DNA of 64,000 nucleotides from Candidatus Saccharimonadales bacterium. Lineage in GTDB: Bacteria > Patescibacteriota > Saccharimonadia > Saccharimonadales > UBA4665. Below the pieces are notes generated by a model. The model ran no database searches, was not told the origin of the DNA, and saw only the letters and a list, made by a program, of their open reading frames with translations. This document shows positions 26,138 through 28,977 of this stretch, piece after piece. Within the stretch, counting starts at the first letter, position 1; each line of letters starts with the position of its first letter. The position numbers were made by a program, and so were the translations under genes. The stretch lies in contig DATIIE010000015.1 of assembly GCA_035479955.1 (NCBI GenBank), positions 2,268-66,267 on the forward strand, in the 5' to 3' direction.

Positions 26138-26225
26138 GCCTTTATTCTATATGATCTTCGGTCATTTGCAGAATAATGGTATAGAATGTTGTGTTTATAA
26201 CAGTTATATGAGATAATTAACAGAC

Positions 26226-27404
26226 ATGACAGCAACTGTCTTCGAAGCACCAGCCCAACAGCACCCCGACGCTCTCGACCCCAGTCAACTGCCCCTCACC
26301 GGCAATGGTATTACTGGTGGCCAAACCGTTGTTTACTCCGATACTGTCGCCGGCCGCCAACCAGTTAGGCAACTAGACGATTTCGAAAAAATCATGGCTG
26401 AAGCTGGCCACCTGCCCTCTTACGTTGTTTCGGCTGCTACCGCGCCCGCGGAGCGCACAAACGGTGGCCGCATATACACCTCAACCCATGCCGTTGAAAG
26501 TGCCAGGACCCGCGGGCCGGCTTGGCATGAATTTGTCGGCAGCAGTGCAACCGCACAGCATATCGCCCCAACCGAAAATGCTGCTACCGCGCGCGCAGAG
26601 ACTACTTCCCGCCCTCGCTGGCACGTTCGTGCCGGCCGCTTTATTACCAATGCCGCCCTGCGCATGTTTAGTATGGGCAGCGAAACAAATGGCACTGAAG
26701 CTGCAAGCTATGCCGGTGCCGCTCCCAACGATTACGTTGGGAGCCGCCGCCGCACAGACACCAGCGCCGCAGATGTTGCCTACGCCACTACAACCTCTTA
26801 CGTCACCCCGGCCAAAACAGCAACTGTCCTGCCTGCTGAGCCACAGCTGTTATACATTGGCGGCCACAACAGGCACGCCGAACCCCGTCACACTGCAGTC
26901 GCTGCAGAAACAGCCCTAGTGCCCGAAACAGTCGTACATGCCCCAGCCACACCCTCGCCCAAAGAGCCCGTAGCGCAAAAAACGCCCTCTACTGAACTGG
27001 TACACATCCCGCGCGCTGCTGAACAAAACATAGCCGGTGGCAAACCTCAAGACGCATTGCTGCAAGGATTGCAGGAAGCTGGCTACGACAGCCTAGAGGC
27101 CTTCAAAAACGCCGCTCGTTTCGCCCTCCCCGCAGACCGTATCGCGTTTTACCACACGCTGCGCCGCATTGTACGAGCAAAGGGCGCCGCCTGGCACACA
27201 GCCGCCAACCTCGAGGGCGACACAGAAGCGCAAGCCAAATTTACCCAGCTTACAACCATCGTTGACGGGCTTGATAAAGAACTGCGCCTCCGCCCCCAGC
27301 AAGAGTCAGCTGACGAGAAGGAACGCAAGCAAGCCGCAGGCACCCAGCCAGACATCGAGCGCATGCGTGAAATGGTTGCAGCCAGCCGCATGTTCCGCCG
27401 CTAG
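26226..27404 (+). CDS. Orphan protein, disordered T/A/P-rich middle, helical C-terminal domain
   Basis: 392-aa ORF divergent from the kinase gene, AT-rich upstream region. Confidence 0.8.
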   Translation: MTATVFEAPAQQHPDALDPSQLPLTGNGITGGQTVVYSDTVAGRQPVRQLDDFEKIMAEAGHLPSYVVSAATAPAERTNGGRIYTSTHAVESARTRGPAWHEFVGSSATAQHIAPTENAATARAETTSRPRWHVRAGRFITNAALRMFSMGSETNGTEAASYAGAAPNDYVGSRRRTDTSAADVAYATTTSYVTPAKTATVLPAEPQLLYIGGHNRHAEPRHTAVAAETALVPETVVHAPATPSPKEPVAQKTPSTELVHIPRAAEQNIAGGKPQDALLQGLQEAGYDSLEAFKNAARFALPADRIAFYHTLRRIVRAKGAAWHTAANLEGDTEAQAKFTQLTTIVDGLDKELRLRPQQESADEKERKQAAGTQPDIERMREMVAASRMFRR

Positions 27405-27431
27405 CGCCTAGCTGCTAGGCATAGGTACTGC

Positions 27432-27605
27432 CCGGCCCACGCGTGTCACTCAGGTGCGCCTTTTATTACCCTGCGGAAACCCGCTCCAAGAAAAACATAG
27501 AAGCCACCGGCGACAGTAAGTGGGTGGGGCCAACAAAACGTGTTTCCAACTTTATTTTCGTTTCGCCTTACTGCCGCCAGATGGGCCGGCCCCAGAGTAG
27601 CCGGC
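27432..27605 (-). ncRNA. Candidate structured non-coding RNA of unknown class (about 175 nt)
   Basis: Promoter TTGCAA-N17-TAGATT (27640-27612). A 9-bp closing helix, a 14-bp helix and two small hairpins; all three non-Watson-Crick positions in the two long helices are G-U on the minus strand. Confidence 0.6.
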
Positions 27606-27611
27606 GGTGTA

Positions 27612-27640
27612 AATCTATCCAAGGTTGCCCGCGGTTGCAA
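27612..27640 (-). promoter_or_regulatory. Sigma70-type promoter of the candidate ncRNA
   Basis: TTGCAA-N17-TAGATT, downstream of the rpoD terminator. Confidence 0.65.
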
Positions 27641-27708
27641 GTACTTTTTTTAAAAAACGCTAAAAACAGGCAAACTAGCCCGGCACAGCGAAAATCCGTA
27701 GCTCTGTA

Positions 27709-27750
27709 ATAACAAAAAGCACCCCGTACCTCAGGGATGCTTTTTGTTAT
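27709..27750. terminator. Bidirectional intrinsic terminator after rpoD
   Basis: ATAACAAAAAGCA...TGCTTTTTGTTAT, 13-bp arms plus CCC/GGG. Confidence 0.85.
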
Positions 27751-27810
27751 GGAAGGGCGGGCACATTTTCGCTGTGCCGGGCTAGTTTGCCCTACTACAC
27801 CTACTGCAAA

Positions 27811-28977
27811 TCATTTAATGTAATCGTGCAGCTTACGGGCATCCTTGTGCTTGCGCAGCTTGGCCAGGGCCTTTGCCTCAATCTGGCGGATACGTTCGCG
27901 GGTTACGCTAAATTCCTGGCCCACTTCTTCCAACGTGTGCTGTTTGCCATCTTCCAGGCCGAAACGCAGCTTAATGATCTTCTGCTCGCGCTCAGTAAGC
28001 GCGGCCAGCATGTCTTTTACTTGCTCTTTCAGCAGCTGGTTAGTGGCAGATTCTTCCGGCGAAATGGTGTCTTCATCTTCAATAAAGTCAGCCAGAACAG
28101 ATTCTTCCTCGTCGTCGCGGATGCTGGCGTCCAAAGAGGAAATGTCCTGCTTAATCTTCATAATGTGCTCAACCTTGTCTACCTCAATCTCCATGGCGTT
28201 GGCGATTTCTTCATTGGTAGGCTCGCGGTTCAATTCCTGGGTCAGGCGGCGCTGGGTGCGCAGCAATTTGTTGATGGTTTCAACCATGTGCACGGGGATA
28301 CGGATGGTGCGCGCTTGGTCGGCAATGGCGCGGGTAATGGCCTGGCGGATCCACCAGGTGGCGTAGGTACTGAATTTAAAGCCCTTGTCCGGGTCAAACT
28401 TCTCTACCGCACGCAGCAAGCCGGTGTTGCCTTCTTGGATCAGGTCCAACAGGTCCAAACCGCGGCCAACGTAGCGCTTGGCAATCGAAACAACCAAACG
28501 CATGTTTGCTTCAGCCATTTTGTCTTTGGCGTCTTTGTCGCCGGCAACAACGCGCTGGGCCAGCGCCAGTTCTTCTTCGGCGCTGAGCAGCGGGATCTTA
28601 CCAATCTCGCGCAGGTACAGGCGCACGCTGTCGTCAGCGATGTCGTCCAGGTAGTGCTGGTCTTCGGTAATTACCTCTTCACCGTCTTCAACAGTCCATT
28701 CGTCGCTCAACTCAACTGGCTCTTCTGTTTCCAGAGGCGCAGCTGTTGTAACAACCTCTACGTTCATGTCGGCGAGCTCAGTATACAGCTTGTCGAGCAG
28801 CTCAGCGTTCTCAGGGGTTTCAGCAATAGCAGTGCTAATGTCACGCTGGTCAATCTTACCGGCCTTCTTCGCTTGCGCGACGAGGTCTTTTTTCACTTGC
28901 TCAAGGTCTACTGGCGCAGTGGCGGCAGCAGCCTTTGGTGCTGCGGGGGTCTTTGGCTTCTTTGGCATAGGCTTCAA
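27811..28977 (-). CDS. rpoD: Resident primary sigma factor RpoD
   Basis: Directly downstream of dnaG; region 1.1, [46 protein letters not shown]. Confidence 0.97.

What the first reader, a model, noticed from the sequence alone, without database searches (positions are those of the whole stretch)
27432..27640. Unassigned structured RNA with its own promoter downstream of rpoD
Seen: after the rpoD terminator a minus-strand promoter (TTGCAA-N17-TAGATT) points into a gene-free 200 bp, with a predicted start at G27605. The transcript can form a closing helix (27589-27581 with 27440-27432, 9 bp), a 14-bp helix (27580-27567 with 27520-27507) and hairpins at 27484-27473 and 27459-27441, giving a multi-way junction. 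All three non-Watson-Crick positions in the long helices are G-U on the minus strand and would be A-C on the plus strand, which supports RNA-level selection and the strand call. A 5' GCCGGC/GCCGGC hairpin competes with the closing helix, and loop UGGGG could pair with CCCCA. It lacks the hallmark motifs of tmRNA, SRP and RNase P. Inference: a new ncRNA class or a highly diverged 6S-like RNA; adjacency to rpoD is suggestive only.
Basis: partly seen in the sequence, partly recalled or inferred. Interest (0 to 1): 0.7.

Follow-up and report, generated by a model that had tools for sequence, protein, structure and literature searches.

The report
Clade-specific small RNA beside rpoD

Summary
The promoter (TTGCAA-N17-TAGATT), the 5' GCCGGC hairpin, the 14-bp helix and the G-U strand asymmetry are all present as described. 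Two orthologues (G016, G008) keep the promoter and a core of about 105 nt, window 27605 to about 27490 on the minus strand. The core is a 5' hairpin P1 and a long hairpin P2/P3, with an invariant unpaired CCCCACCCA and a U-rich tail.

- **Structure:** each orthologue folds the same way on its own (z -3.6 to -5.3; antisense -1.1 to -2.1). Six pairs show compensatory changes.
- **Not supported:** The closing helix and the 3' hairpins are not conserved. The 27441-27459 hairpin is the terminator of the convergent gene. The 191-nt fold is no better than shuffles (z -0.97).
- **Known families:** no Rfam family matches. It is not 6S, SRP RNA, tmRNA or RNase P RNA.
- **Distribution:** 3 of 23 species of the genus and none elsewhere, always next to a convergent, fast-evolving orphan 390-aa gene.
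- **Promoter:** the same promoter module drives protein genes elsewhere, so the promoter call is sound.
- **Expression:** untestable, because no RNA-seq run holds the stretch.

Verdict: a genuine lineage-restricted orphan sRNA, a new member of a known kind, of modest interest.

The parts
27641..27663 (-). A/T-rich UP-like tract upstream of the -35 (minus strand GCGTTTTTTAAAAAAAGTAC)
   Evidence: Sequence. AAAAAGTAC is kept in G016. AAAAAGTGC is kept in the paralogous promoter at C109 and in strain variant X3. A UP-element function is inferred.
27612..27640 (-). Promoter: -35 TTGCAA (27640-27635), 17-nt spacer with the conserved GGGCAACCTTGG, -10 TAGATT (27617-27612)
   Evidence: Present in G016 and G008 at the same distance from P1. 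The same roughly 45-nt module lies in front of a leaderless LTD-domain protein gene in the own genome (C109) and in G005, and downstream of rpoD in G011, G015 and G003, where it drives protein genes. It matches only 8 of 12 positions of the E. coli consensus, so the generic scan did not list it.
27585..27605 (-). P1: 5'-terminal hairpin starting at the inferred start site G27605. The stem is 27605-27599 with 27591-27585, and the loop is 27598-27592 (ACUCUGG)
   Evidence: The stem is invariant in 3 species, with one U-G to C-G change. The loop A(C/A)UCUGG is conserved. It is predicted independently in each orthologue.
27504..27584 (-). P2/P3 long hairpin. P2 is 27584-27567 with 27520-27504. P3 is 27562-27556 with 27538-27532. 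The P3 loop 27555-27539 is variable.
   Evidence: Five P2 pairs and one P3 pair have changes on both sides across the three species. A G-U pair is conserved in all three. Partner-slid controls are 54% paired or less. The separate minimum-energy folds agree.
27521..27531 (-). Unpaired 3'-side bulge GGCCCCACCCA. The CCCCACCCA part (27529-27521) is invariant in all three species.
   Evidence: Alignments. It is left largely unpaired in the folds; in two of them only a marginal 2-3-bp GG(C)/(C)CC hairpin forms within it. A role as the binding surface is inferred.
27487..27503 (-). U-rich tail after P2 (CUUCUAUGUUUUUCUUG), the probable 3' end or intrinsic terminator
   Evidence: Sequence. G008 has CAUUUUCU at the same place. 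G016 is only pyrimidine-rich. Not called by the terminator scan, so this is inferred.
27432..27486 (.). It is not part of the conserved RNA. 27441-27469 is the plus-strand terminator of ORF 26226-27404.
   Evidence: No homology in G016 or G008 beyond about 27500. Plus-strand terminator call. No U-run follows it on the minus strand.
26226..27404 (+). Convergent orphan gene (392 aa) that always accompanies the RNA. It has a leaderless-type promoter (GAGATAAT, then 7 nt, then ATG).
   Evidence: Homologues occur only in G016 and G008, at 29-37% identity. No Pfam, PADLOC or PHROG match. The N-terminal 270 residues are modelled as disordered. Residues 271-350 form a helical domain with block-mean pLDDT 88-94 and no fold match.
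27669..27793 (-). Compound rpoD terminator: a 26-bp perfect inverted repeat (27669-27694 / 27766-27791) around an inner terminator hairpin (27716-27750)
   Evidence: Absent in G016 (rpoD stop to promoter is 25 nt) and replaced by another terminator in G008.

Best explanation
This is a separate small-RNA gene of about 100-115 nt on the minus strand.

**Transcription.** A sigma-70/SigA-type promoter (TTGCAA-N17-TAGATT with an A/T-rich upstream tract) starts transcription at or next to G27605, the first base of a GC-rich 5' hairpin (P1). A 5'-terminal hairpin of this kind would be expected to protect the end; that is inferred.

**Structure.** P1 is followed directly by a long two-part hairpin (P2/P3). 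Its 3' strand carries an invariant, unpaired C-rich bulge (CCCCACCCA). The hairpin plus the U-rich tail most likely ends the transcript near 27490.

**Function.** The RNA is an accessory, lineage-specific riboregulator. The invariant single-stranded elements (the C-rich bulge and the P1 loop A(C/A)UCUGG) are the working surfaces. Most likely they pair with G-rich RNA targets in trans or hold a protein.

**Shown versus inferred.** Shown here: promoter conservation, non-coding nature, strand, fold, covariation and narrow distribution. Inferred: the start site, the 3' end, expression, and the mode of action.
For: **Homologues**
- Found in G016 (69 bits, then 104 bits with the 3-sequence model) and in G008 (35, then 87 bits). 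Promoter and core are kept, while the flanks and the neighbouring ORF are diverged almost beyond alignment.

**Fold**
- The same architecture is predicted separately for each orthologue, at z -3.6 to -5.3. The opposite strand is clearly worse.
- Six pairs have compensatory changes and 95.6% of cells are paired, against 54% or less for slid partners. One G-U pair is conserved in all three sequences and would be C-A on the other strand.

**Non-coding**
- Indels of 1, 2 and 3 nt between orthologues, and no shared ORF, argue against coding.

**Promoter**
- The same roughly 45-nt module sits in front of bona fide protein genes in this genome and in relatives.
- The -35 and the A-tract survive in a strain variant whose neighbouring bases changed.

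**Context**
- No co-oriented gene follows, so it is not a leader.
Against: - No transcript evidence: no RNA run holds the stretch.
- Only three species, all close relatives, so covariation rests on few independent events. The counted alignment was fitted to the structure.
- The terminator is atypical: a very long branched stem, an interrupted U-run, and a weak tail in G016.
- No convincing target was found for the C-rich bulge. Exact complements occur at chance frequency (8 found; I reckon about 9 expected by chance) and lie inside coding regions.
- No complement was found for the P1 loop in the neighbouring genes.
- The promoter matches the E. coli consensus at only 8 of 12 positions.
Confidence: 0.6

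Rival explanations
1. The RNA is the dedicated partner of the convergent orphan gene (26226-27404). It would act either as a convergent or 3'-overlapping antisense regulator, as in RatA/txpA-type pairs, or as an RNA bound by that protein. RNA and gene would together form one accessory two-part module.
For: RNA and ORF are present together in exactly the same 3 of 23 genomes, in the same convergent order between rpoD and the kinase gene. G019, G005, G018 and G009 lack both and have the kinase gene directly after rpoD. In G016 the RNA core ends 4 nt from the ORF's stop codon.
Against: - The three genomes are each other's closest relatives (RpoD about 95% identical), so co-occurrence may be one shared inheritance.
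- In the window, about 100 nt and the ORF's own terminator separate the two.
- No complementarity above background was found between the RNA and the ORF mRNA, and no P1-loop complement.
- The ORF is a 390-aa, largely disordered protein, not a small membrane toxin.
Confidence: 0.2
2. It is a conserved leftover, not a working RNA. The promoter after rpoD is ancestral in the genus. In this clade its original cargo gene was lost or replaced, leaving a leader-plus-terminator stub that is transcribed but has no function of its own, for example acting only as an insulator against the convergent gene.
For: The same promoter module after rpoD drives small membrane-protein genes with 60-300-nt leaders in G003, G011, G012 and G015. 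The site is a variable slot.
Against: - The core is kept at about 79% identity with compensated helices and an invariant unpaired motif, while surrounding non-coding DNA is unalignable and the neighbouring protein is only 29-37% identical.
- No sequence similarity to the leaders of the other species.
Confidence: 0.1
3. It is a highly diverged 6S-like RNA that binds RNA polymerase holoenzyme.
For: It lies next to rpoD. No 6S RNA is detectable in the genome with Rfam RF00013, so that niche is formally unfilled.
Against: - No match to RF00013 even at E up to 10.
- The conserved RNA is about 105 nt, without paired ends and without a large two-sided central bubble.
- The proposed closing helix is not conserved.
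- Present in 3 of 23 species only.
- The rpoD-adjacent site holds other cargo in relatives.
Confidence: 0.02
4. It is not an RNA gene at all. It would be a small protein-coding ORF (27446-27640 minus, 64 aa) or a DNA-level palindrome.
For: A 64-aa ORF overlaps the stretch.
Against: - That ORF starts inside the -35 box.
- The frame is broken by 1- and 2-nt indels in the orthologues, whose ORFs differ in frame and length.
- No family match.
- Compensatory changes, G-U asymmetry and the strand-specific fold energy favour RNA.
Confidence: 0.03

Closest known systems
Generic bacterial trans-acting small RNAs with their own promoter, a 5' stem-loop and a terminator hairpin, especially those that use C-rich single strands (actinobacterial 6C RNA, Rfam RF01066; Bacillus RoxS / Staphylococcus RsaE). 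Comparison from my own knowledge.
   Same: Size of about 100 nt. Stand-alone promoter. 5'-terminal hairpin. A long 3' hairpin followed by a U-rich tail. The most conserved unpaired element is a C-run (CCCCACCCA), as in RNAs that pair with G-rich sites.
   Different: - No Rfam model, 6C included, matches at E up to 10.
- The C-run sits in a bulge between two stacked helices, not in hairpin loops.
- The interrupting A makes it a poor anti-Shine-Dalgarno sequence.
- No target was identified.
- Distribution is three species.
6S RNA (Rfam RF00013)
   Same: A non-coding RNA with a strong promoter. It lies near the sigma-factor gene, which is suggestive only.
   Different: Length, architecture, lack of a closing stem and central bubble, no covariance-model match, and no broad conservation.
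Convergent 3'-overlapping type I toxin-antitoxin pairs (txpA/RatA, bsrG/SR4 of Bacillus subtilis; own knowledge)
   Same: The small RNA and the neighbouring gene face each other and co-occur strictly.
   Different: The neighbour is a 390-aa, mostly disordered orphan protein, not a small hydrophobic toxin. Overlap of the transcripts is not shown, and in the window it is unlikely.

Membership tests
6S RNA (RF00013) | Match to the family covariance model | tested here: not met
   No match in 27300-27900 at E up to 10. No match in the whole genome, while the same search matched in 5 of 14 control genomes.
6S RNA (RF00013) | A 150-200-nt rod in which the 5' and 3' ends pair (closing stem) around a large central bubble | tested here: not met
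   The conserved core is 105 nt: a 5' hairpin plus one hairpin with a one-sided 8-11-nt bulge. The proposed closing helix is absent from the minimum-energy fold and from the orthologues.
6S RNA (RF00013) | Housekeeping-type conservation across related species | tested here: not met
   3 of 23 genus genomes. None found in the 100 family and 40 relative genomes sampled.
6S RNA (RF00013) | Binds sigma-70 holoenzyme and templates product RNA | not testable with these tools
   Needs biochemistry.
SRP RNA (RF00169 / RF01854) | Covariance-model match with the domain IV motifs, and an Ffh partner in the genome | tested here: not met
   - No SRP match in the region or in the genome.
- No Ffh or FtsY homologue by tblastn, using an E. 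coli Ffh sequence validated against PDB entries.
- The apical loop is not conserved.
tmRNA | tRNA-like domain and tag reading frame | tested here: not met
   ARAGORN finds no tmRNA in the window or in the genome.
RNase P RNA (RF00010) | Covariance-model match | tested here: not met
   The genome's RNase P RNA is elsewhere (contig C99, 248 bits).
6C RNA (RF01066) | Two hairpins with C-rich loops, and a covariance-model match | tested here: not met
   Not among matches at E up to 10. The C-run lies in an internal bulge.
Independently transcribed bacterial sRNA (generic kind) | Own conserved promoter and no co-oriented downstream gene | tested here: met
   The promoter is conserved in three species and is paralogous to promoters of protein genes. 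The next gene is convergent.
Independently transcribed bacterial sRNA (generic kind) | Conserved secondary structure with covariation, and non-coding | tested here: met
   Frame-breaking indels.
Independently transcribed bacterial sRNA (generic kind) | Defined 3' end (intrinsic terminator) | tested here: inconclusive
   A U-rich tail follows P2 in the window and in G008, and is weak in G016. Not called by the terminator scan.
Independently transcribed bacterial sRNA (generic kind) | Detected transcript | not testable with these tools
   No RNA run holds the stretch. Only soil DNA metagenomes do.
Type I TA, convergent 3'-overlap type | Small hydrophobic toxin whose mRNA overlaps the RNA | tested here: not met
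   The neighbour is 392 aa and mostly disordered. In the window its own terminator lies between it and the RNA.

The most novel reading that the evidence does not exclude
The RNA and the convergent orphan protein together form a new kind of accessory RNA-protein module of epibiotic Saccharibacteria. Two versions of this reading are open. In one, the protein's conserved helical C-terminal domain binds the invariant C-rich bulge. In the other, the RNA is delivered to the actinobacterial host and imitates the host's C-rich (6C-type) regulatory RNAs. Nothing found here excludes either. Nothing supports it beyond strict co-occurrence, the convergent layout and the C-rich motif.
Probability: 0.05. 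Interest if true: 0.75.

Novelty: new member of a known kind. Interest (0 to 1): 0.3.

Why it matters
Very few regulatory RNAs are known from Saccharibacteria or the wider Candidate Phyla Radiation. A well-delimited RNA with its promoter, fold and conserved single-stranded motifs is therefore a usable entry point for Northern blots, RACE and pull-downs once a culture or metatranscriptome exists.

The locus also shows that the position after rpoD is a variable slot served by a reusable promoter module. That bears on how these reduced genomes gain and express accessory genes.

The find is not a missing housekeeping RNA, and it does not open the 6S question for this phylum.

Tried and rejected
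**Searches for more members**
- Rfam at gathering thresholds and at E up to 10 gave nothing in the region.
- A blastn-type search of 40 relatives gave only G016 plus a promoter-only hit in G005.
- The single-sequence model over 100 genera of the family and over the genus gave nothing new.
- A filter-free search of the 20 rpoD-downstream regions found G008.
- The three-sequence model over 40 relatives gave nothing new. The weak G018 hit lacks the motif.
- The metagenome pattern scan gave one chance hit inside a coding region.
- The genome-collection scan returned only the two known orthologues.
- The viral scan found none.
- A profile search with the neighbour protein led to a second assembly of the G008 species with an identical RNA.

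**Expression and strain variation**
- No RNA runs hold the stretch.
- Contigs of soil DNA runs added only near-identical strains and one promoter-region variant.

**Target hunting**
- Exact and G-U-tolerant complements of the C-rich bulge occur at chance level.
- Duplex energies against the neighbour mRNA are within background.
- No P1-loop complement in the neighbouring genes.
- The UGGGG:CCCCA pseudoknot, or a longer P1-3'-strand:bulge pairing, is 10 bp in the window but not kept in G016 or G008 by my hand pairing of their sequences.

**Neighbour protein**
- No Pfam, PADLOC or PHROG family, no distant homologues and no fold match.

**Other checks**
- Small membrane proteins found after rpoD in other species have no homologue in this genome.
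- Literature searches found nothing on Saccharibacteria small RNAs.

Full report
**Setting.** The window comes from a 1.18-Mb, 55% G+C assembly of a soil Saccharimonadales bacterium. The rpoD gene lies at 27811-28977 on the minus strand, behind dnaG.

Downstream of rpoD on the minus strand come four things:
- a compound terminator, a 26-bp perfect inverted repeat around an inner hairpin with a U-run (27669-27793);
- an A/T-rich tract;
- about 200 bp without a conserved ORF, reaching the 3' end of a convergent ORF (26226-27404, plus strand).

**The observation.**
- *Present as described.* The promoter hexamers, their 17-nt spacing, G27605 seven bases after the -10, the GCCGGC/GCCGGC hairpin, the 14-bp helix (which extends to 17 bp) and its G-U pairs are all in the sequence. 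The 9-bp closing helix can also be drawn.
Its minimum-energy fold does not use the closing helix.
- *One 3' hairpin has another explanation.* The 27441-27459 hairpin is followed by a T-run on the plus strand and by no U-run on the minus strand. It is the terminator of the convergent ORF.

**Homologues define a shorter RNA.**
- A DNA search of 40 relatives found one orthologue, G016, at 79% identity over window 27502-27657 only. That span is the promoter plus about 105 nt.
- A covariance model of the window sequence, run without filters over the rpoD-downstream regions of the genus, found a second and more diverged orthologue, G008.
- A three-sequence model found no others in 40 relatives.
- Pattern scans of the genome, metagenome and viral collections added nothing.
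- A second assembly of the G008 species carries the identical RNA.
- The family therefore has three known members, all in one sub-clade of one genus (RpoD about 95% identical among them).

**Anatomy.** In all three species the RNA has the same parts:
- *Start.* It begins seven bases after TAGATT, at the first G of a 7-8-bp GC-rich hairpin P1 whose loop A(C/A)UCUGG is conserved.
- *P2.* A 17-bp helix follows immediately.
- *P3.* This inner hairpin has a variable loop.
- *Bulge.* On the 3' side between P3 and P2 lies an unpaired strand containing the invariant CCCCACCCA.
- *Tail.* A U-rich or pyrimidine-rich tail comes last.

**Evidence for the fold.**
- Each orthologue, folded alone, gives this same architecture with z = -3.76, -5.25 and -3.56. 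The opposite strands give -1.10, -1.82 and -2.07.
- On the model-guided alignment, 95.6% of pair cells are standard pairs, against 54% or less when partners are slid.
- Six pairs, five in P2 and one in P3, changed on both sides. One G-U pair is kept in all three.
- The counted alignment was fitted to the structure, and three related sequences are few. The independent single-sequence folds give the same picture.
- Indels of 1, 2 and 3 nt, and the lack of a shared frame, exclude a conserved small ORF.

**The promoter is real.**
- The same roughly 45-nt module has an A-tract, TTGCA(A/T), a spacer containing GGG(C/T)AAC(C/G)TTGG, and TA(G/C)(A/T)(A/T)T. It stands in front of a leaderless gene for a secreted LTD-domain protein on contig C109 of this genome, and of its orthologue in G005.
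- In G011, G015 and G003 the module stands at this same place after rpoD. In G015 and G003 it drives short mRNAs for roughly 65-aa membrane proteins, and in G011 a longer leader followed by a larger membrane-protein ORF. G012 encodes a similar small membrane protein after rpoD, although I did not see the module there.
- A strain variant in one soil run keeps the -35 box and the A-tract while neighbouring bases differ.
- In G019, G005, G018 and G009 the kinase gene follows rpoD directly.
- The position after rpoD is thus a variable slot. In the G000/G016/G008 clade it holds the RNA plus the convergent 390-aa ORF, and these two co-occur exactly.

**The neighbour.**
- The ORF is real. It has a conserved leaderless-type promoter and a conserved N-terminal PxTGNG motif, and its length is maintained.
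- It evolves very fast, at 29-37% identity between species.
- It has no family or defence-system match and no detectable distant homologue.
- Its N-terminal 270 residues are modelled as disordered. Residues 271-350 form a confident helical domain (block-mean pLDDT 88-94) that resembles nothing solved.

**What it is not.**
- *Rfam.* No family matches, even at E = 10.
- *6S.* The 6S model finds nothing in the genome. Architecture, size and distribution also contradict 6S.
- *RNase P.* The RNase P RNA is on contig C99.
- *SRP.* SRP RNA is not detected in this genome or in any of the 23 genus genomes. The genome also has no Ffh or FtsY homologue, so an SRP role is excluded rather than open.
- *tmRNA.* ARAGORN finds no tmRNA.

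**How it most likely works.**
- The data show a separately promoted, structured, selectively maintained RNA whose most conserved unpaired parts are the C-rich bulge and the P1 loop.
- The best-fitting model is an accessory riboregulator. P1 would protect the 5' end. P2/P3 plus the U-rich tail would end and stabilise the transcript. The C-rich bulge, held between two helices, would be the surface that meets a G-rich RNA or a protein.
- I could not identify a target. Complements occur at chance frequency, and none lies in the neighbouring mRNAs.
- The main rival is that the RNA is tied to the convergent orphan gene, as antisense partner or as ligand. It rests on co-occurrence that may be simple shared descent.
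- Expression could not be tested, because no RNA run holds the stretch.

**Verdict.** This is a genuine, new, narrowly distributed orphan small RNA.
- The find is a new member of a known kind, of modest interest. Interest would rise if the RNA-protein module reading, or a host-directed role, were shown.

Noticed in passing
window 27612-27663; own genome contig C109 around 11268 (minus); L007 about 2500-2545; L046 665-700; L054 about 735-775; L058 about 575-620: A reusable promoter module of about 45 nt with a conserved spacer: AAAAAGT(A/G)C TTGCA(A/T) N4-5 GGG(C/T)AAC(C/G)TTGG(A/C) TA(G/C)(A/T)(A/T)T. It drives unrelated cargo: this RNA, a leaderless LTD-domain secreted protein, and membrane-protein genes. 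The conserved spacer hints at a shared regulator site or at a particular sigma factor. The genome has an extra actinobacterial-type sigma factor.
   Followed up: partly
rpoD-downstream regions of 22 genus genomes (alignment A7): The site between rpoD and the nucleotide-kinase gene is a variable slot. It is empty in G019, G005, G018 and G009, and holds the RNA plus the orphan ORF in G000, G016 and G008. G003, G012 and G015 carry roughly 65-aa Cys-containing membrane proteins, and G011 a larger membrane protein. Other genomes hold other sequence.
   Followed up: partly
whole genome G000 and the 23 genomes of the genus: No SRP RNA was detected: RF00169 in 0 of 23 genus genomes, and RF01854 none in G000. 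No Ffh or FtsY homologue was found in G000 by tblastn with a validated E. coli Ffh. ARAGORN finds no tmRNA in G000. The genus may lack the SRP pathway, or may carry unrecognisably diverged components. This deserves its own check.
   Followed up: partly
window 27669-27793: The rpoD terminator is a 26-bp perfect inverted repeat flanking an inner terminator hairpin. It is absent from G016 and G008. Short contigs from unrelated soil studies cover it at 95-99% identity, probably from related strains. A 45-nt look-alike of the inner hairpin exists on contig C78.
   Followed up: no
window 26138-26225: A divergent promoter region. Both the orphan ORF (GAGATAAT, then 7 nt, then ATG) and the kinase gene (TATAGAAT, then 6 nt, then ATG on the minus strand) look like leaderless or near-leaderless mRNAs. 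The same layout appears in G016, G008 and G019.
   Followed up: no
window 26226-27404: A fast-evolving orphan protein. About 270 N-terminal residues are modelled as disordered, with a conserved PxTGNG motif near the start. Residues 271-350 form a confidently modelled helical C-terminal domain with no fold match.
   Followed up: partly
window 27606-27660, run X3: A co-occurring strain has a 1-nt shift around the start site, giving the TAGATTACACGC spacing seen in G016 and G008. It also has several substitutions just upstream of 27630, while keeping TTGCAA and the A-tract.
   Followed up: no
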